From: Candidatus Falkowbacteria bacterium
GTDB taxonomy: Bacteria; Patescibacteriota; Patescibacteriia; UBA11705; JACRDX01
Length of the DNA: 39,157 bases
NCBI GenBank assembly: GCA_043798985.1
Contig: JAZDOE010000016.1
Location: 1-39,157, forward strand
Reading direction: 5' to 3'
Shown here: positions 10,805 through 38,040 of the stretch, in pieces
How the letters are laid out: each line of letters opens with the position of its first letter
Numbering within the stretch: position 1 is the first letter of the stretch
Notes under the pieces: model-generated
Told to the model about the DNA's origin: nothing
What the model saw: the letters and a program-made list of their open reading frames with translations, nothing else
Databases searched by the model: none
Program-made: the position numbers and the translations under genes

Positions 10805-11680
10805 ATGGAATTCAACAAGGAGAAAATAAATTTCCTAAAATATTTGGAACATAACTTGAGCCGTAGCCAAAAAACGTTGGAAACGTATGATTTATGTTTA
10901 ACCCGTTTTTTTAATTGGCTGGCAAAGGAAAAAATTTCATCACTGACAAAAATCAACGAACAAACCATAAAAAAATATAAGGCGTGGCTAAAAAAAATAA
11001 CATTTGGCAACAATAAAAAATTCAGCGCAAAAACTTGTAATCATCATTTGATCGCTTTGCGAATGCTGTTTGTTTATCTTCGTCGCAGAGATAAAAAAGT
11101 TTTTGCGCCAGAACAAATTAAACTTGACAATCAACCCAAAACAAAACTCAACTTTTTAACAAACCGCGAACTAATTAAATTACTGGACGCGCCAATTAAC
11201 CGTACATCTGACAAAGACAATAACCAACCTGCAAGGTTGCGAGACAAAGCTGTTTTGGAATTTTTATTCGCGACCGGATTAAAAATTTCTGAAATTGTTG
11301 GCCTCAAAAAAACAAATTTGAAAAATTTTAAACTGGGACAGCAAGCGCAATTCTGGTTAAAAAAATATTTAGAACAACGCAATGATAAATCACTCTTCTT
11401 ATTCATCAGCTATGACCGCGCAAGCAATGCCAGAACCAAGGCAGAACCAGCCACAGCCGCGCTGACGCCAAGGTCATTGCAGAGAATTGTGCAAAAATAT
11501 TCAAAGCTGGCTGGCTTAACCAAAAAAGTGACGCCCCAGATTATTCGCAATACTTTTGGATTACGATTGTTAAATAACGGAGCAACAATAAAAGAATTGC
11601 GCGCGGCCATGAATTTTAAATCAGACCTTGCCGCGCGCTCATATATTGAAGCATTGAAAAAAGCTAAAAACCTGCTATAA
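10805..11680 (+). CDS. XerC/D-like tyrosine recombinase with degenerate active site
   Basis: N-terminal SAM-like domain (RSQKTLETY, HHLIALRMLFVYL), RDKAVLEFLFATGLKISE, TPQIIRNTFG; start at ATG 10805. Confidence 0.85.
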   Translation: MEFNKEKINFLKYLEHNLSRSQKTLETYDLCLTRFFNWLAKEKISSLTKINEQTIKKYKAWLKKITFGNNKKFSAKTCNHHLIALRMLFVYLRRRDKKVFAPEQIKLDNQPKTKLNFLTNRELIKLLDAPINRTSDKDNNQPARLRDKAVLEFLFATGLKISEIVGLKKTNLKNFKLGQQAQFWLKKYLEQRNDKSLFLFISYDRASNARTKAEPATAALTPRSLQRIVQKYSKLAGLTKKVTPQIIRNTFGLRLLNNGATIKELRAAMNFKSDLAARSYIEALKKAKNLL

Positions 11681-11694
11681 TCTCTAACATTCGT

Positions 11695-11826
11695 GCGCCC
11701 GTAGTTTCACCCCTCGGGTGACCACCCGCAGGGTGGCAATGGATACCCGCCGCAAGCCGCACAACGCGGCAAGCTGGCGGGCCCGCCACAATGCCCTTCG
11801 GGCTTTGGGCGGGGAATAGAAGCCTT
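11695..11826 (+). pseudogene. 5'-half duplicate of tRNA-Arg(UCU) interrupted by two hairpin-doublet insertions
   Basis: removing 11707-11736 and 11746-11813 gives gcgcccgtagttcaatggatagaatagaagcctt versus gtccccgtagttcaatggatagaatagaagcctt of the tRNA at 11846. Confidence 0.85.
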
Positions 11827-11845
11827 TGCTCAATTTACAATTCGT

Positions 11846-11920
11846 GTCCCCGTAGTTCAATGGATAGAATAGAAGCCTTCTAAGCTTTAGATCTTGGTTC
11901 GATTCCAAGCGGGGACACCA
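11846..11920 (+). tRNA. tRNA-Arg(UCU)
   Basis: cloverleaf: GTCCCCG/CGGGGAC acceptor, GAAGC-CT-TCT-AA-GCTTT, TTCGATT loop, encoded CCA. Confidence 0.96.
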
Positions 11921-15765: not shown

Positions 15766-16536
15766 ATGCTTAAAGAACCAACAATAAAAGCAGAACAAGA
15801 ACAACGCGAACGCGTGGAACGCGGGATCAGGATGGCCGCGGTTTTCGGTTGCGCGCCCGCGCAAATGAAATTGTGCGGACGAAAGGACAAGGAAACGCCG
15901 CAGGTTTTGCAGAATTTTTTAGCGAACAAGGGCGGCGTTGATTCAGCGCGGGCGCGCGAAGTTCTGGAAAATTTTGAAGCGGCAACTGAGTATTACAAAT
16001 TAATTGCCGCGGCAAACAACATTCCAGACCCCTTTGACGAACGCGTGGTTGAAGCATATTGGATTGGCAATGATTTATTGGAAAAAGTTAAACCCGATGA
16101 TATTAAAAAAATGATTTTGGAAAAATTTGTCGGCGCGAAAATGATGACGCAAGAAGACGCAGAAGCGCGAGTCGCGAAATTAGCAGCCGACATTGTTGCT
16201 CATCATAATTTTCACGTGCTGGCTTTAGGCGCGGCGAGCGCTGAAGCTCGGCAAGTAGCTGGATTGTACGAATTGTGCAGTGTAAATTTTGGCAAAGTTG
16301 TTGGCGTTGAAGATAATAAAGTGACAATAAAATACAAGCCACTTGTTTTAGAAGACAGCGGGTTTACGGTCAGCAACAATGAGGTTGCAAAGCAACTAAC
16401 TTGGGACAAAAATGTTGCGCCAGAAATAAAAAATGGAGACAGCGTTTGTTTCCATTGGAATCAGGTTTGCCAAAAATTGACAGAAGCGCAAGCGCGCAAC
16501 TTGGCAGAATATACACGCGTGGCGTTGTCATCCTGA
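15766..16536 (+). CDS. conserved hypothetical protein (resembles DUF6390, with a HypC-like C-terminal motif)
   Basis: FEAATEYYKLIA...DPFDERVVEAYWIG, AHHNFHVL, GDSVCFHW; family recalled from motifs, not searched. Confidence 0.65.
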   Translation: MLKEPTIKAEQEQRERVERGIRMAAVFGCAPAQMKLCGRKDKETPQVLQNFLANKGGVDSARAREVLENFEAATEYYKLIAAANNIPDPFDERVVEAYWIGNDLLEKVKPDDIKKMILEKFVGAKMMTQEDAEARVAKLAADIVAHHNFHVLALGAASAEARQVAGLYELCSVNFGKVVGVEDNKVTIKYKPLVLEDSGFTVSNNEVAKQLTWDKNVAPEIKNGDSVCFHWNQVCQKLTEAQARNLAEYTRVALSS

Positions 16537-16882
16537 GCCTGTCGAAGGATGACGAGATGCACACAACTTTGCCAGCTGTGGCAGATCGTCTAACTGCGCA
16601 AAAATTAGCGCTTCTTTTTTTTCTCTACGCCAACCCTTAAGCTGCTTCTCTCTGGCGATTGCCTTATCAACATCAACAAATTCCTCATAATATACGAGCA
16701 CAACCGGTCGCCGTGAATATGTATAACAAAACGTTTTTTGACCGTCGTTATGCTGATTGATCCTATGATTGATATTATTGGTCACGCCAGTATAATAGCT
16801 ACCGTCCGAACACCTTAAAATATACACGTAATAATATTTATACATAAGGTTTGGTCGCCCTTCGACAAGCTCAGGGTGACAA
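16525..16882. mobile_element. GIY-YIG gene flanked by inverted REP-like hairpins
   Basis: ttgtcatcctgagcctgtcgaagga (16525-16549) versus reverse complement of 16858-16882 ttgtcaccctgagcttgtcgaaggg: 22/25 identical. Confidence 0.7.
16528..16845 (-). CDS. GIY-YIG nuclease family protein (UPF0213-like)
   Basis: YYVYILRCSDGSYYTGVTN...R...HN...RRPVVLVYYE...AIAREKQLKGW. Confidence 0.92.
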   Translation of the reverse strand: MYKYYYVYILRCSDGSYYTGVTNNINHRINQHNDGQKTFCYTYSRRPVVLVYYEEFVDVDKAIAREKQLKGWRREKKEALIFAQLDDLPQLAKLCASRHPSTGSG

Positions 16883-30748: not shown

Positions 30749-31450
30749 CTATTCGTGTGCTGGATATTCCTGTATGAGCTCCAAGAGCTCTATGTGGCAC
30801 ATCAGTGTTGGAAAAGACAGAGACACAGTGTCTGGGTAGTCTTTCAGATTGTTGCAGAAATTTACCCAAACCAGTTTTGCTTCGGCAAGCGCTTCGTCGC
30901 GAGCAGTGGCTTTTAAGGGATATTCTACTTCCTTTTCCTTCGGCGGGATGCCAACGCGTTTTTCCACGAAGTGCAGGTACCATGTTTGTCTGCGCTCGTC
31001 TTTGGTCGCGACCACACCCTTCTGTGGCGCGGTCCAGTCTTCCACTGGCAACAGCTCGCCGCGCCGCACTTTGCAGTAGATGTGCTTTGCCGCGGCCACG
31101 CTGGCCGCGTAGATGGCATATGCTTGCGCAGTTTCACCGTTGTCGCTGGTGAAAAACGACGAAACGACGATGCTGGCGTCAGCGGTCTTGTACACACCTT
31201 CCTTGCGGTAGCAGTTGATGCCAACGACATCTTCGCGGTGAGTGACATGAGTGACCAATTCTACGGGAATGCACGGACATTCAGTGGTCGGATCCATCAA
31301 TCCTCCATGGAATGTCACGCTGACATACGATTGCGACCGCTTCTGATCCCACTGGGTTGTCGCGTCTGGATTTTTGATCCAAGCCCGCGCTGTTTCACAA
31401 GTGAACTCACCCAGCAGGTCTTTCATCAGGTCTTTCAGCCAAATGAACAT
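30749..31450 (-). CDS. hypothetical protein
   Basis: AAGGAGG SD before ATG 31450; own promoter and terminator. Confidence 0.7.
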   Translation of the reverse strand: MFIWLKDLMKDLLGEFTCETARAWIKNPDATTQWDQKRSQSYVSVTFHGGLMDPTTECPCIPVELVTHVTHREDVVGINCYRKEGVYKTADASIVVSSFFTSDNGETAQAYAIYAASVAAAKHIYCKVRRGELLPVEDWTAPQKGVVATKDERRQTWYLHFVEKRVGIPPKEKEVEYPLKATARDEALAEAKLVWVNFCNNLKDYPDTVSLSFPTLMCHIELLELIQEYPAHE

Positions 31451-31586
31451 GGGAACCTCCTTTTGGTCACGGGATGCCGTAGAGAGTTTTGCTCTCAATC
31501 GGGTCGTGATCCGTTAGCTGAAGGTTAGCAAATATACTAAAAAAAGTCAATCCCAACAATGAGTTTGACTCTTAATTTACGTTAAA

Positions 31587-31679
31587 TGCGCCCCGTAGGA
31601 ATCGAACCTACATCACTGGTTCCGCCCTGTCATTCGACAGGGCGCCCCGTCGGATGACGGGGCGAAGACGAGTCTATCC
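31587..31679 (-). pseudogene. 3'-half duplicate of tRNA-Arg(UCG) with a 40-bp double hairpin in the anticodon loop and a degenerate D-arm remnant
   Basis: 31585-31624 identical to 31948-31987; insert 31625-31664; then aagacgagtctatcc versus aagaccagtactctatcc in the intact gene. Confidence 0.88.
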
Positions 31680-31941
31680 TTAGGCATCCCAACTGGTTTA
31701 GGATGTCTCGAAGCTGTTGTTTTAGTAATCGTTTTCCTTCAGTCGTTTTTAGGAATTGTTCTCTTCGTTGCGCATCGCTTTTTAAGATATAAGTTTCGTA
31801 ATGAGTTAATGTCAGCGGGCGGTAATTTTTTGTGGAGACAACCTTGCCAATTTTATGTTGCACAAGTCGTTCATTAAGATCCGCAGTGCTTCCGGTATAA
31901 AGATTTTTATTGGATAAACAGAGAATATATACGAAATACAT
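31630..31941 (-). CDS. GIY-YIG nuclease family protein
   Basis: MYFVYIL...LYTGST.DL..RL.QH..G.V.ST...RP...HYE.Y...DA.RRE.FLK; start set at ATG 31941. Confidence 0.92.
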   Translation of the reverse strand: MYFVYILCLSNKNLYTGSTADLNERLVQHKIGKVVSTKNYRPLTLTHYETYILKSDAQRREQFLKTTEGKRLLKQQLRDILNQLGCLRIDSSSPRHPTGRPVE

Positions 31942-31949
31942 ATTTACAA

Positions 31950-32021
31950 TGCGCCCCGTAGGAATCGAACCTACATCACTGGTTCCGAAGACCAGTACTC
32001 TATCCGTTGAGCTAGGGGCGC
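31950..32021 (-). tRNA. tRNA-Arg(UCG)
   Basis: GCGCCCC/GGGGCGC acceptor, CTGGT-CT-TCG-GA-ACCAG, GTAGG-TTCGATT-CCTAC. Confidence 0.95.
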
Positions 32022-32035
32022 ACGATTGATGAAAT

Positions 32036-32070
32036 AACAAATGGCAAATACCAAATGTCAAATATCAATT
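32036..32070. repeat. heptamer tandem repeat (nncaaat x5)
   Basis: aacaaat ggcaaat accaaat gtcaaat atcaatt. Confidence 0.7.
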
Positions 32071-32085
32071 CAATGATATTTCCGC

Positions 32086-32784
32086 CTACAGCCAGCCTTT
32101 TGCGTGCAAGCCAGCTCGCGCCGCGTGTTCCTCTGCTTCTTGCTTGCTCAATCCTTTCCCTGTCGCGATTAACTCCTTTTTTAAATATACGCCGACAACA
32201 AATGTTTTCGCGTGATCAGGCCCAAACTCTTCTTCCACTTTATACGATGGCGTGGTTCCAATCTCTTCCTGCGCTTTTTCCTGAAAATAACTTTTTGGAT
32301 CAACGTATAATTTTTGTTCCAAAATAATCGGCAATTCAGGTAAAAGATATTGCGAAATAAATTGTTTTGCCGGTTCCCAGCCACTATCCATATAAATCGC
32401 GCCTGTCACAGATTCAAACGTGTTTGCCAAAATATATTGTCTGGCTTTGCCTTTATCTTTTGATTCGCCACGGCTCAAAAACAAAAAATCTTCAAGCCCG
32501 ATTTCTTTTGCAATGTGCGCCAGCATTTTACTGTTTACAAGGCTTGCGCGCCAGTTTGTTAATTCGCCTTCTTGGTTTGGGTAATTATTGTACAAATGCT
32601 CGGTGACAACCAACTCCAAAACAGCGTCGCCTAGAAATTCCAGACGCTCATTGTGCTCAACTCCGCAATCAGGATGCTCATTCAAATATGAGCGGTGGGT
32701 AAGCGCCATGCGCAAAATATCTTGATTTTTAAATTTCATTCCAAGCAATTTTTCCAATTTGCGTAAATCTTTTTCCATAACCAT
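32086..32784 (-). CDS. rnc: ribonuclease III
   Basis: HNERLEFLGDAVL signature; C-terminal dsRBD (DPKSYFQE...SKQEAE). Confidence 0.98.
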   Translation of the reverse strand: MVMEKDLRKLEKLLGMKFKNQDILRMALTHRSYLNEHPDCGVEHNERLEFLGDAVLELVVTEHLYNNYPNQEGELTNWRASLVNSKMLAHIAKEIGLEDFLFLSRGESKDKGKARQYILANTFESVTGAIYMDSGWEPAKQFISQYLLPELPIILEQKLYVDPKSYFQEKAQEEIGTTPSYKVEEEFGPDHAKTFVVGVYLKKELIATGKGLSKQEAEEHAARAGLHAKGWL

Positions 32785-32787
32785 AAT

Positions 32788-32909
32788 GAAATTCGAAGCA
32801 CGAAACCCGAAATTCGAAACAAGCTCGAAGCATGAAATTCCAATGTTTCAATATTGGGACATTCTGATTTCGAATTTGTTTAGGATTTCGAATTTAGAAT
32901 TTCGGATTT
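32788..32909. repeat. inverted array of degenerate heptamers with no enclosed gene
   Basis: gaaattc gaagcac gaaaccc gaaattc... mirrored by ...atttcga atttaga atttcgg. Confidence 0.75.
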
Positions 32910-33362
32910 GTTATCATTTTCCTTGTCTTCGCTCTTTTTTTGTACTTTTATGTCGCGGAAAATTGAACCAAGAACGCCATTCACAAATTTGCGGGATGGT
33001 TCTCCGTTAAACTCGCGCGCGATTTCCAATGCCTCGTCAATCGCGACTTTTGCCGGGGTGTCAGGGTCAAAAAGCAATTCATAAATTCCCATGCGCAAAA
33101 TATTTCGGTCAACGATTGTAATCTGGGAAAGAGGCCATTCGGGCGCGTATTTTGTAATGTGTTCATCTATTTTGGTTATGTTTTTAAAAATTCCATTGAT
33201 TATTTTCTTCACAAATGAAAGTTCTTCCATGCCAGGATAAAGTGACTTTGCTAAATAGTCAACAAATTCTTCAATTTTTTCCTTTGGCGCTTGGTTAAAA
33301 TCCCATTGAAACAGCGCTTGAATAATAAGACGGCGCGCGGTATGCCGATTTTGTTTGGACAT
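32880..33362 (-). CDS. nusB: transcription antitermination factor
   Basis: RHTARRLIIQALFQWD, IVDRNILRMG, VAIDEALEIA, FVNGVLG; start set at ATG 33362. Confidence 0.96.
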   Translation of the reverse strand: MSKQNRHTARRLIIQALFQWDFNQAPKEKIEEFVDYLAKSLYPGMEELSFVKKIINGIFKNITKIDEHITKYAPEWPLSQITIVDRNILRMGIYELLFDPDTPAKVAIDEALEIAREFNGEPSRKFVNGVLGSIFRDIKVQKKSEDKENDNKSEILNSKS

Positions 33363-33372
33363 AAACGTGGAA

Positions 33373-33421
33373 AATTTTGAATTTCTAATTTTAAATTTTG
33401 AATGAATGTTAAATTTTGAAT
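33373..33421. repeat. heptamer repeat (aatttnn) upstream of nusB
   Basis: aattttg aatttct aatttta aattttg ... aatgtta aattttg. Confidence 0.6.
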
Positions 33422-33533
33422 GACAGAAACACAAATCAACAAAAAAATCATATCAAATCAGCGCGATTTTGTCTAATTACTGATTGAAAATTTTAGCAGA
33501 ACGAGTTATTATGGGCATAATGATAATAAAATT

Positions 33534-34955
33534 ATGGATGGTTTATTAAGAACACGGATGGCGCGCGGCGCGCTTATTCAGCTGGTTGGAAAAATCGCGA
33601 GCTCAATTTTAGGTTTGGTCGCGTTCGCGATGATGGCGCGCTATCTTGGCGTTGAAGGTTTTGGAATGTACACGACAGTCACGGCGTTTTTGCAGTTTTT
33701 CGGGATATTGATGGAATGCGGATTAACGCTGGTGACAATTCAGATGATTTCAAAAAGCAATGTTGATGAAAATAAAATTTTAAGCAATATAATGACATTT
33801 CGCGCGATTAGCGCGTTTTTGTTTTTGGCGGCCGCGCCGGTTATTGTTTTATTTTTTCCATATCCGCAAATCGTAAAGGTCGGAGTTTTGGTCGCGGCCG
33901 CCTCATTCTTTTTCGTTTCGTTGAACCAAATTTTTGTCAGTTATTTTCAAAAAGCTTTGCGGTTGATTGTCGTGACCATTGCTGAAAATGTCGCCAGAAT
34001 GATTTTGATTGTTGGCGTGATGCTTGCCGTGTATTTTGACATGGGTTTGTTAAATATCCTCGGTTGGTTGGTGGTGAGCAATTTAATAAATTTGGCGGTC
34101 AGCTGGTTTTGGGGCGCGAAATGGTTAAAACTTCGGCCAGCTTTTGATTGGATAATTTGGAAAGAAATTTGGACGCGCTCATGGCCATTCGCGCTTTCTA
34201 TTTCGTTAAATTTAATTTATCTGAAAGGCGACACGATTATTTTGTCATTGTTTCGGCCGCAAGCGGAGGTTGGTTTGTATGGCGCGACATATCGGGTGTT
34301 GGATATTTTGACAATGATTCCAACGTTGATTATGGGCGTGGCATTGCCGGTGCTGGTGCGGTTTTGGCAAGAAAATAAAAAAGAATTTTTTGTTTTGATG
34401 CAAAAGATTTTTGACTGTTTTTTGATGTTGGCTGTCCCGGTTGTTTTGGGCACGATGCTTATTGCCGACAAAATTATGGTTTTTGTGGCAGGTCAAGATT
34501 TTTTCGCGGCAGGCGCGATTTTGCGGGTTTTGATTTTGGCGGCTGGCGCGATTTTACTGAATGGCTTGAGCGGTTACGCGATTGTGGCATTGAACAAACA
34601 AAGAAAAATGATTTTTGGATATTTGTTTGTTGCCGCGCTTACATTGATTGGGTATTTCGTGACAATTCCAATATTCGGTTATTGGGGCGCGGCATGGTTC
34701 ACGGTTTTTTCGGAAACATTAATTCTTATTTTGACCAGCATTGTTGTTTTCAAAACTTCAAAATTTGTTGCCAGTTTCAAATTGCTACCGAAAATTTTAT
34801 TGGCAACCATTGTAATGTTGGCAGTGTTGAAATTAACAATCAGCTGGCCGGTCTGGATTTTGTTTTTTGAAGCGGTTTTTGTTTATTTCGCGATTTTATT
34901 CGCGGTGCGCGGATTGAGCAAGCGGTTTGTCTTTGGTTTAATAAAACTTAGATAA
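33534..34955 (+). CDS. Wzx-like oligosaccharide flippase
   Basis: many TM segments; ARYLGVEGFGMY, D..ILS...EVGLYG, GAAW. Confidence 0.88.
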   Translation: MDGLLRTRMARGALIQLVGKIASSILGLVAFAMMARYLGVEGFGMYTTVTAFLQFFGILMECGLTLVTIQMISKSNVDENKILSNIMTFRAISAFLFLAAAPVIVLFFPYPQIVKVGVLVAAASFFFVSLNQIFVSYFQKALRLIVVTIAENVARMILIVGVMLAVYFDMGLLNILGWLVVSNLINLAVSWFWGAKWLKLRPAFDWIIWKEIWTRSWPFALSISLNLIYLKGDTIILSLFRPQAEVGLYGATYRVLDILTMIPTLIMGVALPVLVRFWQENKKEFFVLMQKIFDCFLMLAVPVVLGTMLIADKIMVFVAGQDFFAAGAILRVLILAAGAILLNGLSGYAIVALNKQRKMIFGYLFVAALTLIGYFVTIPIFGYWGAAWFTVFSETLILILTSIVVFKTSKFVASFKLLPKILLATIVMLAVLKLTISWPVWILFFEAVFVYFAILFAVRGLSKRFVFGLIKLR

Positions 34956-35100
34956 GAAGTATCGCTTAATTTAGATTAAATATAGCCGACGTCTTGACTG
35001 CTGTCGGCTTTTTTATTAGACTTCAAGTAGTTTTTGACGCGTCAGTCATGGCATCTCAAATGGTTCGGGAGCATGATCAGCGCAAAGAGAGAGGTGTGTC

Positions 35101-35715
35101 ATGGGTAAGTCCGTAGCGTTGGAACAGTCGCATGCTTTGATGGCAGTGTTAGCGCAGAATGTGGATTGGAGTCAGCTGGATGCTGATACCATCCAGGCGA
35201 TTATCATGGCGCCAAGAGAGTCTGGCGCGCAGTTCACGGCTTTCTTGAGGAATCGGGGACAGATGGTTGTCGGCGGGAGTAATAAGCTGACGATTGACCG
35301 GAGCAAGCCGTTTGACCCGGTTGCGTTCGTCGGGAAGGGATGGAAGATCGGAGAGCAGGACGAACGCGCGCTGGCGTTGACCGAGATTGATCTTGCCGCA
35401 GTGCAGTTGAAACACATGCTCAAGGATAGAGAGCCGTACGTGGGGGGAGAAGAGAAGCTGACGCGGCTCAAGGTCGCAGGGTATGTTCGCCTTGACGCAG
35501 GCGTGTTTGAGACGCTGTGGAACAATCAGCATCTCATTCCCGAGAGATGGAAGGGCAAGATCGTGTATTTTGACGGCACCGTTCTGGTGTCGCCGGACGG
35601 TGGTCGATATGTGCTCTGCATTGACGGGGGTGGTGGGCAGTGGAGCCGGGACTGCGGCTACCTTAACCACAGCTTCAGCGGCAATAACCCGTCGGCTGTC
35701 CTCGCCGCGCCATAG
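35101..35715 (+). CDS. hypothetical protein, possible DGR target
   Basis: GAGAGGTG SD; NNC-codon-rich 3' end followed by a hairpin. Confidence 0.75.
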   Translation: MGKSVALEQSHALMAVLAQNVDWSQLDADTIQAIIMAPRESGAQFTAFLRNRGQMVVGGSNKLTIDRSKPFDPVAFVGKGWKIGEQDERALALTEIDLAAVQLKHMLKDREPYVGGEEKLTRLKVAGYVRLDAGVFETLWNNQHLIPERWKGKIVYFDGTVLVSPDGGRYVLCIDGGGGQWSRDCGYLNHSFSGNNPSAVLAAP

Positions 35716-35729
35716 CACTTTCATTGCAA

Positions 35730-35761
35730 TCCCTTTGGTAAATTACCGAAGGGAGTTTTTT
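35730..35761 (+). terminator. hairpin with T tail (terminator, or DGR-type downstream stem-loop)
   Basis: tccctttggtaa-a-ttaccgaaggga gtttttt. Confidence 0.65.
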
Positions 35762-35794
35762 ATCTAGCGGCAAAGTATGATAAAATGAGTTTGT

Positions 35795-36220
35795 ATGGTA
35801 AACAATAAGAGTTCGCGCGTCCCGCTTGCCGAAGTTTCTGAGAGTTTTTCCCGATCAAGCGGAAAGGGCGGGCAAAACGTTAATAAGCTGGAAACAAAAG
35901 TTGAATTGCGCTGGAATATCGGAGCGTCATTGGCGTTTGACGAGGCGCAAAAACAAATGATTCGCTTAGCTTTGCAAAATCGGATAAATAGCGCGGATGA
36001 GGTTGTTATTTTTTGCCAAGAAGAAAGAACGCAGGGACGAAATCGGGAATTGGCGTTTGAAAAATTGAATCAACTTGTTGCGCGGGCGATTGTGCCGATA
36101 AAAAAAAGACGGCCAACAAAACCGACGCATGCGTCAAAAGAAAAAAGATTGGCATTGAAAAAAGCGATGACAATAAAAAAGAAAGATAGAAAAAAGATTG
36201 TGAAAGTGGAATCCATTTAG
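35795..36220 (+). CDS. arfB: alternative ribosome rescue peptidyl-tRNA hydrolase
   Basis: RSSGKGGQNVNK..TKVELR, RTQGRN, basic tail RRPTKPT...RL..KK. Confidence 0.93.
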   Translation: MVNNKSSRVPLAEVSESFSRSSGKGGQNVNKLETKVELRWNIGASLAFDEAQKQMIRLALQNRINSADEVVIFCQEERTQGRNRELAFEKLNQLVARAIVPIKKRRPTKPTHASKEKRLALKKAMTIKKKDRKKIVKVESI

Positions 36221-36223
36221 AAT

Positions 36224-36304
36224 GGAGAGGTGCCAGAGTGGTTGAATGGGCCGCTCTCGCCCCGTCATTCGACGGGGCGCCCTGTCGAATGACAGGGCGA
36301 AAAG
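36224..36304 (+). pseudogene. 5'-half duplicate of tRNA-Ser(CGA) with a 40-bp double hairpin in the anticodon
   Basis: 36222-36259 matches 36588-36625 at 37/38; insert 36260-36299; then aaaag versus aaatg in the intact gene. Confidence 0.88.
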
Positions 36305-36308
36305 TTGT

Positions 36309-36578
36309 ATGTTTTACCTTTATATACTTTTGTTAGCTAATAAACAGTTGTATACTGGTTTTTCTTCTGACTTAAAGGTGCGGTTTAGACAGCACGAAAA
36401 TGGTAGCGTTGAGTCAACGAGACATAAACGGCCGGTTAAGTTGATTCATTATGAAGCATATTTGAAGGAATCTGACGCTCGGCGCCGGGAGAAATTTTTA
36501 AAGACAACAGAGGGGAAGCGATTATTAAAAATGCAGATTCGGGATTTGCTTTTAGGACATGGATTCATCATGAAATAA
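36309..36578 (+). CDS. GIY-YIG nuclease family protein
   Basis: MFYLYIL...LYTGFSSDL..R..QH..G.V.ST...RP...HYEAY...DARRREKFLK; start set at ATG 36309. Confidence 0.92.
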   Translation: MFYLYILLLANKQLYTGFSSDLKVRFRQHENGSVESTRHKRPVKLIHYEAYLKESDARRREKFLKTTEGKRLLKMQIRDLLLGHGFIMK

Positions 36579-38040
36579 ATAATGTACATGGAGAGGTGCC
36601 AGAGTGGCTGAATGGGCCGCTCTCGAAATGCGGTAGGTTGGAAACAGCCTCGAGGGTTCGACTCCCTCCCTCTCCGCCAGTTGGGAAATGAAGTCATTGG
36701 CTCGCCCGCTATGCGGGCTCGCCAGCCGTTTTTCGGGGAAATTTCAAGCCGTTTTGAATTCAACATAAAGTTCGAGCCGACATTTTTGAGAAATGCACGG
36801 ATTTGCGTTTTGTCGCCCTGCGACAAAAGAATTTTGGCTTGGCTACTCAATAAAATCACTTCTCGCATCAGTTCGAGCCAATTATTTCCCTTTTGTTCAA
36901 AATCTCTGATTTCTTGGTCTATATCGGCTTTCTCGCCCAATAGTTTTGCTTTCTTGGTCTGATACTCGTCCGGCGATATTCCTTTGCCCTCGATGTAAAT
37001 ATCAAGAAGCCGATCTATTTTCTGCTCAACCTCCACTTTTCGTTCTTTCAGATTTTGAACAAAAGAAACACCCTCGTTTTGGATACTCGTTTTCTCTCGG
37101 TCTAACTCGGCAAGCATATTGTCTCTCCAGTCGTCGGGAATAGAAACTTTTTGAATGACGGCTTTCATCTGTTCAACAAGTGCTTCCTCGCGCAGATATT
37201 TTTCGTTACAGGTTTGCTTTTTCTTGGTGCAACGATAATACACATGACCTTTTTGGGTTTCGGCGGTAATGAGGCAACCGCACTTTCCGCATTTCATAAA
37301 ACCAGAAAAAGCAAACTCGTGCTTTCGCTTTCTCTTTTTCTTGCCTCGATTGCTCATTACTTGTTGAACGGAATCAAAAAGTTTCTTGGAAATAATTGGC
37401 TCGTGGCTTCCTTCGTATAGCTCGCCGTTGAAACGGAAAGTTCCATAATAAAAAGGATTTTTCAACATTCGCTGGACACAGGAAGTTGAGAGAACATTGC
37501 CTTTGTAGCTGTCGAGTCCGGTATCCGCCAAAAACTGCTTGATATTTTTGAGGGTGTTGTCGCCGGTGCCATAAAGTTCAAAACATTTTCGCACTAACAC
37601 AGATTTATCATTATCGAGGTCTATGCTCTTTGTTTTTGAGTTGTTGAGATAACCGAGTGGCGCAAACCCCGGCCATATTCCCTTTCGCAGTTTTTGGCGG
37701 TGGCCCCGCTTGATGTTCTCGCTCAAATTGTCCACATAGTATTTACTCTGTCCAAAGGCAATGTTCAGCATAAATTTCCCCTGTGGCGTTGAATCAAACC
37801 AAAATGTGGGAAATTTAAGGTCTTGGATTTTTCCCGTGTCCAGCAGATAGATAATCTTTCCGCCGTCTATGGAATTGCGAGCTAATCGATCGGGGTGCCA
37901 AGCCAAAATTCCACCGGCTTCTCCGGCGCAAATCCGATCCAGCATTTCTGCGAAAACTTTTCGCCCAGGTTCTTTGGCAGTTTGCGCCTCGCTGAGCGAG
38001 GCGACGATTTCAAGTTTTTCTTTGGCGGCAAATTCTTTTT
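36449..38040 (-). pseudogene. large serine recombinase, apparently lacking its N-terminal catalytic segment; frame reads antisense through tRNA-Ser
   Basis: AKEPGRKVF, WHPDRLARN, APLGY, NPFYYG, HEPIIS, CGKCG...YYRC; upstream of 37945 the frame hits TAA near 38055 without a Y.R.S motif. Confidence 0.8.
36590..36679 (+). tRNA. tRNA-Ser(CGA)
   Basis: GGAGAGG/CCTCTCC acceptor, G discriminator, CCA, long variable arm, CT-CGA-AA loop (U31:U39 mismatch). Confidence 0.93.

What the first reader, a model, noticed from the sequence alone, without database searches (positions are those of the whole stretch)
31585..36679. Candidate system: integrase-free ~365-bp GIY-YIG units that duplicate half a tRNA and carry a shared double hairpin in the anticodon loop
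Seen: two loci 4.6 kb apart, at unrelated tRNAs (Arg-UCG and Ser-CGA), have the same three parts: an intact tRNA, a ~90-100 aa GIY-YIG gene on the tRNA strand, and a 38-40 bp half-tRNA duplicate. Repeat offsets are 363 and 366 bp. In both, the duplicate is broken right after TCG in the anticodon loop by ccccgtcat[c/t]cgacgggg-cg-ccctgtcgaatgacaggg-cg (39/40 identical, same orientation relative to the tRNA, CG on both sides). The proteins are only about 60% identical (49/81 by hand), so the hairpin is much better conserved than the gene. The layouts are mirror images: intact-gene-3' half versus 5' half-gene-intact. Known: integrative elements duplicate tRNA halves at the anticodon loop using integrases, and GIY-YIG domains act as homing or structure-specific nucleases. 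Inference: a minimal mobile element spread by nuclease cleavage at TCG-containing anticodon sites plus host repair, with the hairpin as recognition end or cleavage-blocking mark. I do not know a described element with this layout, but cannot exclude one.
Basis: partly seen in the sequence, partly recalled or inferred. Interest (0 to 1): 0.9.

Follow-up and report, generated by a model that had tools for sequence, protein, structure and literature searches.

The report
Tiny nuclease-and-hairpin parasites of tRNA genes
Two tRNA genes in this small bacterial genome each carry a roughly 365-base selfish insert, made of a minimal nuclease gene, a conserved double hairpin and a spare copy of half the tRNA, and the same insert turns up in tRNA genes of distant bacterial phyla.

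Summary
Both loci hold an intact tRNA, a 89-103 aa GIY-YIG gene on the tRNA strand, a 38-40 nt half-tRNA copy (offsets 363 and 366) and a 40-nt double hairpin (39/40 identical) right after TCG of the anticodon loop.

It is one case of something wider:
- In this 0.75-Mb genome, 9 of 11 small GIY-YIG genes abut a tRNA on the same strand. Many tRNAs carry partial self-copies broken by GC-rich hairpins.
- I found 32 distinct copies of the same double hairpin in public genomes and metagenomes. 16 lie in a tRNA T-loop remnant (GGTTCG|hairpin|CGAATCC) and 7 in Arg-TCG or Ser-CGA anticodon loops, nearly always flanked by CG.
- 18 of the 32 lie beside the same GIY-YIG subfamily (52-74% identical), in records labelled Patescibacteria, Saccharibacteria, Lentisphaerae, Planctomycetota, Verrucomicrobiota and Kiritimatiellae.
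- A congeneric genome has an empty tRNA-Ser site and reciprocal filled and empty sites in a tRNA-Val cluster.

Best reading: a mobile nuclease-gene element that restores its target tRNA with a duplicated part. It resembles the mobile endonuclease ORFs of fungal mitochondria, and it has GIY-less miniature forms. Cleavage by the nuclease is inferred, not shown. The single hairpin also spreads on its own.

The parts
31949..32022 (-). intact tRNA-Arg(TCG), the only one in the genome
   Evidence: ARAGORN; Rfam tRNA 68.7 bits
31630..31941 (-). GIY-YIG gene A (103 aa plus stop). It starts 8 nt after the tRNA and its last 11 codons and stop are read from the hairpin
   Evidence: ORF list; Pfam PF01541 E 4.2e-13; alignment with invariant Y, Y, G, R, H, E
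31663..31690 (-). decayed remnant of the tRNA-Arg 5' part (D-arm to anticodon stem) ending in ..cttcg, overlapped by the 3' end of gene A
   Evidence: read against the intact tRNA; 7-nt exact match ending at tRNA position 37
31623..31664 (-). double hairpin (38-nt core 31625-31662) with CG on each side, placed right after TCG of the displaced anticodon loop
   Evidence: fold -19.8 kcal/mol, z -5.74
31585..31624 (-). displaced 3' half of tRNA-Arg, 40/40 identical to the intact gene
   Evidence: the repeat finder D2; blastn 39/39
36222..36259 (+). displaced 5' half of tRNA-Ser(CGA), 97% identical over 38 nt, starting 2 nt after the stop of the RF-1-domain gene
   Evidence: the repeat finder D4; blastn 35/36; ORF 35795-36220
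36258..36299 (+). double hairpin (38-nt core 36260-36297) with CG on each side, inside the displaced anticodon loop (ctctcg|..|cgaaa)
   Evidence: fold -19.9 kcal/mol, z -6.84
36309..36578 (+). GIY-YIG gene B (89 aa plus stop), 9 nt after the hairpin and 11 nt before the intact tRNA
   Evidence: model pLDDT 94.2; best folds UPF0213 and Slx1
36590..36679 (+). intact tRNA-Ser(CGA), the only one in the genome
36449..37945 (-). not part of the unit: N-terminally truncated large serine recombinase ORF whose reading frame runs through tRNA-Ser on the other strand
   Evidence: (Resolvase profile matched from position 55; Recombinase; Zn_ribbon_recom)

Best explanation
Each locus is a resident copy of a small selfish element that lives in tRNA genes.

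Composition of the element:
- a gene for a minimal GIY-YIG nuclease that is catalytic domain only, of the Slx1/UPF0213 kind, in a subfamily marked by the C-terminal motif FLKTTEGKR(L/F)L.QQIRD;
- a near-palindromic 38-nt double hairpin;
- a copy of the part of the tRNA that the insertion displaces. This leaves one intact tRNA, and a dead fragment stays on the far side of the gene.

The spare part can be the 3' part (layout A: intact tRNA, gene, hairpin, 3' fragment) or the 5' part (layout B: 5' fragment, hairpin, gene, intact tRNA).

Inferred mechanism:
1. The nuclease breaks tRNA-gene DNA at a TCG that lies in a loop of the cloverleaf. This is the T-loop GGTTCGAATCC, or the anticodon loops of Arg-TCG and Ser-CGA. 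The break has a 2-nt stagger.
2. Recombinational repair from an element-bearing copy, in the cell or on imported DNA, then copies the cassette in. This is how mobile endonuclease ORFs do it in fungal mitochondrial genes.
3. The hairpin sits exactly at the cut site of the displaced fragment, 4-7 nt from the cassette boundary. It either belongs to the element's end or is a small rider that uses the same break.

GIY-less miniature units and single hairpins are non-autonomous relatives.

Shown: anatomy, site preference, co-occurrence, patchiness, empty alleles, purifying selection. Inferred: cleavage, its site, and repair-driven spread.
For: 1. Linkage to tRNAs in this genome. 9 of 11 GIY-YIG ORFs lie within 60 nt of a tRNA on the same strand. 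Random placement gives a mean of 0.16 and at most 4 in 20,000 trials. 19 of 45 tRNAs have a self-fragment of at least 11 nt within 700 nt, against 167 of 1888 cross-tRNA control pairs.

2. Relatives. The family is found in 39 of 41 genomes, with up to 11 copies. At the best locus of each of 29 other genomes, a tRNA lies within 130 nt in 17 and within 131-360 nt in 6 more. All 23 are on the gene's strand, and 6 loci have no tRNA. Many loci hold tRNA fragments split by insertions in the D-, anticodon- and T-loops.

3. The double hairpin elsewhere: 32 distinct copies.
   - 16 lie in T-loop remnants, 7 in Arg-TCG or Ser-CGA anticodon loops, 2 after the anticodon stem of tRNA-Lys, 1 between gene and tRNA, and 6 away from tRNAs.
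   - 18 have the same GIY-YIG subfamily within 150 nt, 52-74% identical to A or B.
   - 8 are GIY-less copies beside an intact tRNA.
   - CG is present on the right in all rows and on the left in all but one.
   - The flank away from the gene matches the tRNA for up to 45 nt. The flank next to the gene matches for 4-7 nt.

4. Host range. Record titles name six phyla or candidate phyla, and locus G+C runs from 0.33 to 0.63. Gene B pairs with a copy at tRNA-Ser(CGA) from a Planctomycetota-labelled record (support 89/89, not starred).

5. Presence and absence in the congeneric genome G001.
   - The tRNA-Ser(cga) site is empty, with a 33-nt spacer.
   - In one syntenic cluster, G000 has the gene before Val(cac) and none before Val(gac), while G001 has the reverse.
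   - tRNA-Arg(tcg) is filled in both, but in the mirrored layout.

6. Tandem units of about 370 nt at one tRNA-Ser(CGA) and direct hairpin repeats on both sides of the gene.

7. The protein is kept. dN is 0.21-0.35 with saturated dS. Y, Y, G, R, H and E are invariant in 20 sequences. The best solved relatives are 1zg2 and 1ywl (UPF0213) and Slx1.

8. The hairpin is under constraint. It is 38-39 of 40 identical where synonymous sites are saturated. At least four compensatory stem changes are seen.

9. The known analogue is fungal mitochondrial mobile ORFs that carry a replacement gene end and leave the native end downstream (PMC3630166, passages).
Against: 1. No biochemical or read-level evidence. 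No sequencing run was listed.

2. The protein is a bare catalytic domain of 86-106 aa with no DNA-binding domain, unlike characterised homing endonucleases. How it would find a site is open.

3. The restored tRNA keeps the presumed target, so the element gives no visible immunity.

4. The duplicated part is always that of the local tRNA, also in GIY-less units that share one hairpin at Thr, Phe and Val. A simple copy-in from another tRNA cannot explain colonisation of a new tRNA.

5. The hairpin can live without the gene. 14 of the 32 double copies have no GIY gene nearby. G015 has 16 single hairpins, 8 of 8 examined not near a tRNA, and only one GIY match.

6. Single hairpins in D-loop arrays sit after TAGCTC, not after TCG.

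7. The protein tree is poorly resolved, with 0 of 15 inner branches starred. The direction and number of transfers are therefore not established. Taxon labels of assembled bins can be wrong.
Confidence: 0.6

Rival explanations
1. The hairpin is an independent REP- or MITE-like palindromic repeat, moved by some other activity (a Y1/RAYT transposase, a restriction-type break at TCGA, or replication slippage). It survives mainly in dead tRNA copies because those are the few dispensable TCG-loop sites in a tiny genome. Its closeness to GIY-YIG genes is a by-product of both sitting at tRNA genes.
For: - The single 18-nt hairpin is dispersed: 12 hits in G000, 6 in G001, 16 in G015, 3 in G012 and 1 in each of five others, of 41 genomes.
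- In G015, 8 of 8 loci examined have no tRNA within 1.5 kb, and that genome has one GIY match.
- 14 of the 32 double hairpins have no GIY gene within 150 nt.
- Both orientations occur.
- The genome encodes a RAYT-like Y1 transposase.
- TCGA is the most depleted palindromic 4-mer in this genome, at 0.31 of expectation.
Against: - The RAYT-like gene is flanked by its own, different palindrome, which has 14 copies in the genome.
- 18 of the 32 double hairpins lie beside one narrow GIY-YIG subfamily in records of several phyla.
- The hairpin site coincides to within 4-7 nt with the end of the duplicated tRNA part.
- TCGA depletion does not follow the hairpin. It is 0.82-0.84 in G015 and G012, which have the hairpin, and 0.06 in G037, which has none.
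Confidence: 0.2
2. The small GIY-YIG proteins are host enzymes of tRNA operons, for DNA repair at highly transcribed tRNA genes or for RNA processing. The broken tRNA copies and hairpins are by-products or processing signals, not a mobile element.
For: - Same-strand, near-abutting position next to tRNAs in most genomes of the class.
- Purifying selection on the protein.
- In some loci the stop codon lies inside the downstream tRNA, which implies co-transcription.
- A published fusion of a prokaryotic Slx1-like domain to a TrmH-type tRNA methyltransferase led its authors to suggest a link to RNA metabolism (PMC1564403, passage).
Against: - Copy number and position differ between two genomes of one genus.
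- Some copies are broken: a frameshifted start at G000 C14 and an early stop in L087.
- Paralogues in one genome are only 30-60% identical.
- The same subfamily with the same hairpin occurs in unrelated phyla.
- Tandem units occur.
Confidence: 0.1
3. The half-tRNA repeats are att-site scars of classical integrative elements made by a tyrosine or serine recombinase. The GIY-YIG gene is leftover cargo.
For: - A truncated large serine recombinase gene abuts tRNA-Ser.
- Three tyrosine-integrase matches exist in the genome, one in the window at 11153-11656.
- Integrases are known to duplicate tRNA gene ends (general knowledge).
Against: - No recombinase lies between the repeats, which are 363 and 366 nt apart.
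- The recombinase ORF lies on the other side of tRNA-Ser, while the repeat is a 5' half upstream.
- The same recombinase-free unit recurs in 18 independent places.
- 5' fragments are as common as 3' fragments.
Confidence: 0.05
4. The duplications are assembly artefacts at repeated tRNA sequence.
For: No reads could be examined, since no run was listed. Many family members lie on short contigs.
Against: The same architecture appears in independent assemblies from many sources, including contigs of 62 kb, 117 kb and 231 kb, and in G001.
Confidence: 0.02

Closest known systems
Mobile endonuclease ORFs (mORFs) with duplicated gene ends in fungal mitochondria (Allomyces atp6; Glomus atp6, atp9, cox2, nad3)
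   Same: An endonuclease ORF (LAGLIDADG, or GIY-YIG in atp9) sits inside a gene and brings a replacement copy of the displaced gene end. The native end stays downstream as a duplicate. The spread is attributed to horizontal transfer (PMC3630166, passages read). Layout A here is the same design applied to a tRNA.
   Different: Here the host is a bacterial chromosome and the target is a tRNA gene. The nuclease is a bare Slx1-like catalytic domain. Either end of the target can be the duplicated one. A conserved double hairpin marks the site. The two copies of the target part are 97-100% identical rather than diverged.
Free-standing GIY-YIG homing endonucleases of T4-type phages (SegB)
   Same: A GIY-YIG gene lies among tRNA genes and cleaves tRNA-gene DNA of a related genome. 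It leaves mostly 2-nt 3' ends and drives inheritance of its own region (PMC2330249, start of abstract as shown in the search listing).
   Different: Seg proteins carry DNA-binding domains and act between co-infecting phages. No target duplication or hairpin is described in what I saw. The window's proteins have no PHROG match, and the nearest phage hits are at most 42% identical.
Double-hairpin elements (DHEs) of chytrid and fission-yeast mitochondria
   Same: Short G+C-rich elements that fold into two hairpins. They are thought to be mobile and are identical or nearly so between species (PMC10085805, passages).
   Different: No homology was tested. DHEs are mostly intergenic or lie in rRNA genes. 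In the passages I read they are not tied to tRNA loops or to a particular nuclease gene.
Slx1 / bacterial UPF0213 (YhbQ-type) GIY-YIG proteins
   Same: Best sequence matches are 1ywl and 1zg2. Best fold matches are 1zg2, 1ywl and Slx1 7cq3 and 6seh. This is the minimal domain without extra domains, as described for prokaryotic Slx1-like proteins (PMC1564403). Slx1 processes branched DNA (title of 6seh).
   Different: No cellular role, tRNA linkage or hairpin partner is reported for the bacterial members in the passages read. This subfamily has its own conserved C-terminal helices.
REP/REPIN repeats with RAYT transposases
   Same: Short palindromes occur singly and as inverted doublets that can fold into one long hairpin. 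They are dispersed in the genome and accompanied by a single-copy enzyme gene (own knowledge of the family).
   Different: The RAYT-like gene of this genome is flanked by a different palindrome. The partner gene here is a GIY-YIG nuclease. The sites are tRNA loops.
Integrase-borne genomic islands and prophages in tRNA genes
   Same: They target tRNA genes, restore the tRNA and leave a partial tRNA repeat (general knowledge; PMC9897764 seen only in a search listing).
   Different: There is no recombinase inside the unit. The unit is 0.37 kb instead of kilobases. 5' as well as 3' fragments occur.

Membership tests
GIY-YIG nuclease superfamily (PF01541) | Profile match above the curated cut-off | tested here: met
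   49.8 and 51.6 bits against a cut-off of 22.6
GIY-YIG nuclease superfamily (PF01541) | Conserved Tyr, Tyr-x-Gly, Arg, His and Glu of the active site | tested here: met
   Y5, Y15, G17, R25, H29 and E61 are invariant in 20 sequences. The assignment of these columns to catalytic roles rests on general knowledge.
GIY-YIG nuclease superfamily (PF01541) | Three-stranded sheet with flanking helices (fold) | tested here: met
   Model pLDDT 94.2. Foldseek hits to 1zg2, 1ywl, Slx1 and the I-TevI catalytic domain.
Slx1-like / UPF0213 minimal clade | Closest to UPF0213 and Slx1 rather than to UvrC or I-TevI | tested here: met
   phmmer against PDB returns only 1ywl and 1zg2. Fold ranks 1-6 are UPF0213 and Slx1, with I-TevI at rank 7.
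Slx1-like / UPF0213 minimal clade | No conserved C-terminal Asn and no auxiliary domain (criteria from PMC1564403) | tested here: met
   No invariant or near-invariant Asn in alignment A2. Lengths are 86-106 aa.
Homing endonuclease gene (free-standing) | Presence/absence polymorphism at the same site in related genomes | tested here: met
   tRNA-Ser(cga) is empty in G001. Val(cac) and Val(gac) are reciprocally filled and empty.
Homing endonuclease gene (free-standing) | Site-specific cleavage of the allele that lacks the gene | not testable with these tools
   Needs enzyme assays. The CG duplication at the hairpin is only compatible with a 2-nt stagger.
Homing endonuclease gene (free-standing) | DNA-binding module that reads a long target | tested here: not met
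   Only the catalytic domain is present.
Homing endonuclease gene (free-standing) | The element-bearing allele is immune because the site is destroyed | tested here: not met
   The restored tRNA keeps the TCG loop unchanged. Only the displaced copy is interrupted.
Mitochondrial-type mORF element with duplicated gene end | Endonuclease ORF between a restored gene and a displaced duplicate of its end | tested here: met
   The definition is from PMC3630166.
Mitochondrial-type mORF element with duplicated gene end | The inserted end is foreign, that is, diverged from the native end | tested here: not met
   40/40 and 37/38 identical in the window. In G011 the displaced copy does differ from the intact one.
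Integrase-mediated tRNA-targeting island | Recombinase gene inside the element, between the tRNA repeats | tested here: not met
   Only the GIY-YIG ORF lies between the repeats.
REP/REPIN-RAYT system | The RAYT gene is flanked by the repeat it mobilises | tested here: not met
   The RAYT-like gene (PF01797, E 6.7e-7) is flanked by a different palindrome with 14 copies in the genome.

The most novel reading that the evidence does not exclude
The minimal GIY-YIG protein and the hairpin form a new kind of bacterial DNA element that works by structure. The nuclease would recognise TCG(A/G) presented in the loop of a DNA stem-loop. Such loops are the extruded T-arm or anticodon arm of a tRNA gene and the element's own hairpins, whose loop region carries the same TCGA. 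It would cut with a 2-nt stagger. The hairpin would be the true mobile end and a target mimic that can move alone. The gene-bearing form would restore its essential target by duplicating part of it and would also ferry whole tRNA genes between phyla, as in L103, where tRNA-Ser(CGA) plus the gene sit inside a broken tRNA-Ser(GGA).
Probability: 0.25. Interest if true: 0.9.

Novelty: new variant of a known kind. Interest (0 to 1): 0.8.

Why it matters
- If the reading holds, tRNA genes of many uncultured bacteria host a compact class of selfish element of about 0.37 kb, with 55-90 nt miniatures. I found no description of it for bacterial chromosomes in eight literature searches.
- It would give the large, unexplained family of stand-alone bacterial Slx1-like GIY-YIG proteins a concrete role and a testable substrate.
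- It would explain why small genomes are littered with tRNA fragments and G+C-rich hairpins, which confuse tRNA annotation and break assemblies.
- It would point to a route by which tRNA genes are exchanged between phyla.
- A nuclease of about 85 residues with a defined loop target would also interest enzymologists.

Tried and rejected
- Intrinsic terminator. No terminator-like site falls at either hairpin and no T-run follows them. Rejected.
- Known RNA family. Rfam at E up to 1 gave only the two tRNAs above their thresholds and weak chance-level hits.
- tRNA intron or split tRNA. The hairpin-bearing copies lack the rest of the tRNA in most loci. Rejected.
- RAYT as the mover of this hairpin. 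It has its own palindrome family. Kept only as part of rival 1.
- Defence system or phage gene. No PADLOC or PHROG match. Phage records hold only distant relatives, at most 42% identity in 16 records.
- TCGA avoidance as a footprint of the nuclease. TCGA is at 0.31 of expectation in G000, the lowest of 16 palindromic 4-mers. In 20-kb samples of 18 relatives, depletion does not follow the hairpin: 0.25 in G001 and G005, 0.82-0.84 in G015 and G012, 0.06 in hairpin-free G037. It more likely reflects restriction systems. Not used as support.
- Protein tree to show transfer or target switching. It is unresolved, with 0 of 15 inner branches starred. I left out L087 (early stop) and the identical duplicates. 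Used only for the B/L090 pair.
- dN/dS. dS is saturated, so no ratio could be given.
- Reads. The look-up of sequencing runs listed none. Assembly errors and population polymorphism could not be examined.
- The search for related loci on viral contigs with alignment A1 failed for lack of a conserved stretch and I did not repeat it.
- Supplementary files of papers were not opened. They might hold tRNA-context tables that bear on novelty.

Full report
**The observation**

The window holds tRNA-Arg(tcg) at 31949-32022 (-) and tRNA-Ser(cga) at 36590-36679 (+). Each is the only gene of its anticodon among the 45 tRNAs of the genome.

- A 40-nt stretch ending at the 3' end of tRNA-Arg is repeated exactly 363 nt away.
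- A 38-nt stretch starting at the 5' end of tRNA-Ser is repeated 366 nt away at 97% identity.
- Between each pair lies one ORF on the tRNA strand. Both match Pfam GIY-YIG (E 4.2e-13 and 1.2e-13) and are 60.5% identical over 81 residues.
- The 40-nt hairpin occurs twice in the window, with 0 and 1 mismatch, and never in 100 shuffles. It occurs nowhere else in the 752,599-base genome as a double unit.
- It folds either as two 7-9 bp hairpins or as one long hairpin, at about -20 kcal/mol (z -5.7 to -6.8).
- In both loci it follows (T)CG of the displaced anticodon loop and has CG on both sides.
- At locus A a decayed piece of the tRNA 5' part still precedes the hairpin, and gene A reads through the first hairpin into the second.
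- A truncated large serine recombinase ORF abuts tRNA-Ser on the far side. It lies outside the unit.

**The genome around it**

Iterative search finds 11 small GIY-YIG ORFs. Nine lie within 60 nt of a tRNA on the same strand. Random placement gives a mean of 0.16 and at most 4 in 20,000 trials.

The other tRNA-linked copies belong to other subfamilies (30-41% identical) but show the same design: a partial copy of the neighbouring tRNA on the far side of the gene, interrupted by G+C-rich hairpins of other sequence in the D-loop, anticodon loop or T-loop.

Nineteen of 45 tRNAs have a self-fragment of at least 11 nt within 700 nt, against 167 of 1888 cross-tRNA control pairs.

The 18-nt single form of the finding's hairpin occurs at eight further places in the genome. 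Seven of these are within about 200 nt of a tRNA.

Upstream of tRNA-Thr, tRNA-Phe, tRNA-Val(tac) and tRNA-Ile(gat) there are one to four units of 54-59 nt, in tandem where there are several. Each unit is tRNA positions 1-13, a hairpin insert in the D-loop and a short spacer, with no GIY gene.

**The congeneric genome G001**

- The double hairpin occurs once, at the orthologous tRNA-Arg(tcg) next to the RNase III gene. There the layout is mirrored: 5' half, hairpin, 4 nt of tRNA, gene, a further 5' scrap with a single hairpin, then the intact tRNA.
- Judged by its two asymmetric stem pairs, the hairpin is turned round relative to the tRNA.
- The tRNA-Ser(cga) site after the RF-1-domain gene is empty, with a 33-nt spacer. 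That tRNA differs strongly in sequence from the window's.
- In the syntenic cluster Val(cac)-Leu(caa)-Val(gac), G000 has a GIY gene with a hairpin-riddled 5' copy before Val(cac) and nothing before Val(gac). G001 has the reverse.
- In both of these, the gene's stop codon is the TAG inside the D-loop of the intact tRNA.

**The class**

A profile of ten copies finds the family in 39 of 41 related genomes, with up to 11 copies. At the best locus of each of 29 other genomes:
- a tRNA lies within 130 nt in 17 loci;
- a tRNA lies within 131-360 nt in 6 more;
- all 23 of these tRNAs are on the gene's strand;
- 6 loci have none, and 2 of those lie at contig ends.

Many loci hold split tRNA fragments.

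In G012, which belongs to another family of the order, tRNA-Arg(tcg) is followed by a gene of the window's subfamily and then by a complete second tRNA copy. That copy carries relatives of the finding's hairpin in both the D-loop and the anticodon loop. A third, more decayed copy follows.

In G011, tRNA-Ser(cga) has layout B with another gene subfamily and other hairpins.

**Beyond the class**

A scan of one genome per species for the double hairpin, with loops left free, gave 13 stretches. One of them repeats the G001 locus. The metagenome scan gave 21 stretches. A sample of 400 genomes of the phylum gave 3 more at up to 2 mismatches.

After removing duplicates there are 32 distinct copies, counting the window's two and G001's one.

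By site:
- 16 lie in a T-loop remnant, read as GGTTCG, hairpin, CGAATCC;
- 7 lie in the anticodon loop of tRNA-Arg(TCG) (4) or tRNA-Ser(CGA) (3);
- 2 lie after the anticodon stem of a tRNA-Lys copy;
- 1 lies between gene and tRNA;
- 6 lie away from any tRNA.

The right flank starts with CG in every row and the left flank ends with CG in all but one. Relative to the intact loop, the insert therefore adds 38 nt plus a second CG.

By company:
- 18 have a GIY-YIG gene of the window's subfamily within 150 nt, 52-74% identical to A or B;
- 8 are GIY-less copies in which an intact tRNA is followed after 15-122 nt by its own T-loop-to-3'-end fragment carrying the hairpin;
- 6 have neither.

The flank away from the gene matches the tRNA for up to 45 nt. 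The flank towards the gene matches for 4-7 nt only.

Record titles name Kiritimatiellae, Pontiella, Verrucomicrobiota, Lentisphaerae, Planctomycetota, Saccharibacteria, Falkowbacteria, the 'Patescibacteria group' and one Gammaproteobacteria record, which is GIY-less. Locus G+C runs from 0.33 to 0.63.

Three loci stand out:
- A 231-kb Lentisphaerae-labelled scaffold has two tandem units of about 370 nt in layout B at tRNA-Ser(CGA). This is the window's locus B in duplicate.
- One metagenome contig has the hairpin plus about 30 nt as a direct repeat on both sides of the gene.
- Another has tRNA-Ser(CGA) plus the gene inserted in the T-loop of tRNA-Ser(GGA).

**The protein**

- The best solved relatives by sequence are the two UPF0213 proteins 1ywl and 1zg2.
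- The model is confident (pLDDT 94.2). Its best fold matches are 1zg2, 1ywl and Slx1, with the I-TevI catalytic domain at rank 7.
- Y5, Y15, G17, R25, H29 and E61 are invariant in 20 sequences.
- Between A, B, the G001 copy and the G012 copy, dN is 0.21-0.35 and dS is saturated.
- The subfamily is large: 325 clusters at E up to 1e-10, with the best 120 at 63-80% identity. Their sources name them only 'GIY-YIG nuclease family protein', 'putative endonuclease' or, once, 'excinuclease ABC subunit C'.

**The hairpin**

It is far better kept than synonymous sites of the neighbouring gene. Its variants keep pairing through double changes: C-G to T-A at stem position 4, G-C to A-T in two genomes, an outer C-G to T-A, and T-A to C-G in the second Lentisphaerae unit. 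It is not a terminator and matches no Rfam family.

The single form is patchy. It occurs in 9 of 41 related genomes, with 16 copies in G015. There, 8 of 8 loci examined have no tRNA within 1.5 kb, and only one GIY match exists. The hairpin is thus able to spread or persist without a neighbouring gene.

**What it most likely is**

The anatomy is that of the mobile endonuclease ORFs of fungal mitochondria. Those sit inside a gene, bring a replacement copy of the displaced gene end and leave the native end behind (PMC3630166, passages). Here the design is applied to tRNA genes and can use either end.

I therefore read the units as selfish nuclease-gene cassettes that spread by a break in the tRNA gene and recombinational repair, within and between genomes. 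The supporting points are empty and filled alleles, patchiness, tandem units, broken copies and occurrence in several phyla.

The constant TCG and the doubled CG fit a 2-nt staggered cut. Such a cut is reported for the T4 tRNA-region GIY-YIG enzyme SegB (start of abstract).

That the hairpin lies 4-7 nt from the cassette boundary suggests that both use the same break. Whether the hairpin is the element's end, a rider or a block on re-cutting of the leftover site is open.

**What does not fit**

- The protein has no DNA-binding domain.
- The restored tRNA keeps the site, so there is no immunity. Tandem units may be the result.
- The duplicated part is always the local tRNA's, so colonising a new tRNA needs a step I cannot name.
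- The displaced copies stay 97-100% identical to the intact gene although the loci look old, which calls for gene conversion or recent turnover.
- Single hairpins in D-loops do not follow TCG.
- The tree of this short protein is unresolved.

**Rivals and novelty**

The rivals are:
- an independent REP-like hairpin;
- a host tRNA-operon enzyme;
- integrase scars;
- assembly artefact.

They are weighed in their own sections. The first keeps real weight.

Eight literature searches found the mitochondrial and phage analogues. They found no description of such units in bacterial tRNA genes. Subscription journals and supplements were not searched.

Noticed in passing
window 16525-16882: A GIY-YIG gene of another subfamily (16531-16836, -) is not near any tRNA. 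It is flanked by 29-nt inverted repeats (86% complementary, 300 nt apart), each itself a hairpin. A solo relative of the repeat lies at G000 C10, about position 1340.
   Followed up: partly
window 36449-37945 (-): A large serine recombinase ORF lacks its N-terminal 55 profile positions, which is where the catalytic serine would lie. Its frame runs through tRNA-Ser(cga) on the opposite strand. It is probably the remnant of another element that used the same tRNA.
   Followed up: partly
window 30749-31498 (-) and 35101-35715 (+): Two ORFs (249 and 204 aa) of G+C 0.54-0.58 sit in a region of about 0.40 and have no Pfam family. One lies near each of the two loci. They are not seen at the related loci of other genomes.
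   Followed up: no
window 11153-11920: A tyrosine-integrase match (11153-11656, +) lies just upstream of tRNA-Arg(tct) at 11846-11920. A 13-nt fragment of that tRNA lies 32 nt before it.
   Followed up: no
G000 C4:63161-63840 (L052 662-1340): A RAYT-like Y1 transposase gene (187 aa, PF01797 E 6.7e-7) is flanked by its own 28-nt palindromes. That palindrome family has 14 copies in the genome. This is a second, separate repeat-plus-enzyme system.
   Followed up: partly
G000 C6:3130-3384, C8:550-741, C20:10940-11391: Tandem arrays of two to four units of 54-59 nt lie upstream of intact tRNA-Thr, tRNA-Phe and tRNA-Val(tac), and a single such unit lies upstream of tRNA-Ile(gat). Each unit has tRNA positions 1-13, a hairpin insert in the D-loop and a spacer, with no GIY gene.
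   Followed up: partly
whole genome G000: TCGA is the most depleted palindromic 4-mer (578 seen, 1857 expected, ratio 0.31). Depletion is patchy among relatives: 0.06 in G037, 0.25 in G001 and G005, and about 0.8-1.3 in the others. It does not follow the hairpin, so restriction systems are the likely cause. G001 also shows GATC at 0.27.
   Followed up: partly
G000 C8:1-150 (L018): Five tandem copies of a 30-nt G+C-rich unit lie directly before a GIY-YIG gene at a contig end. A related piece follows the neighbouring tRNA-Met.
   Followed up: no
L008 378-1415 (G001): A reverse-transcriptase-like ORF (345 aa, with a YADD motif) lies next to the empty tRNA-Ser(cga) site of the congeneric genome.
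   Followed up: no
L103 760-1361 (metagenome contig): A complete tRNA-Ser(CGA) plus a GIY-YIG gene sits between a hairpin-broken tRNA-Ser(GGA) copy and an intact tRNA-Ser(GGA). The cassette can therefore carry a whole extra tRNA gene.
   Followed up: partly
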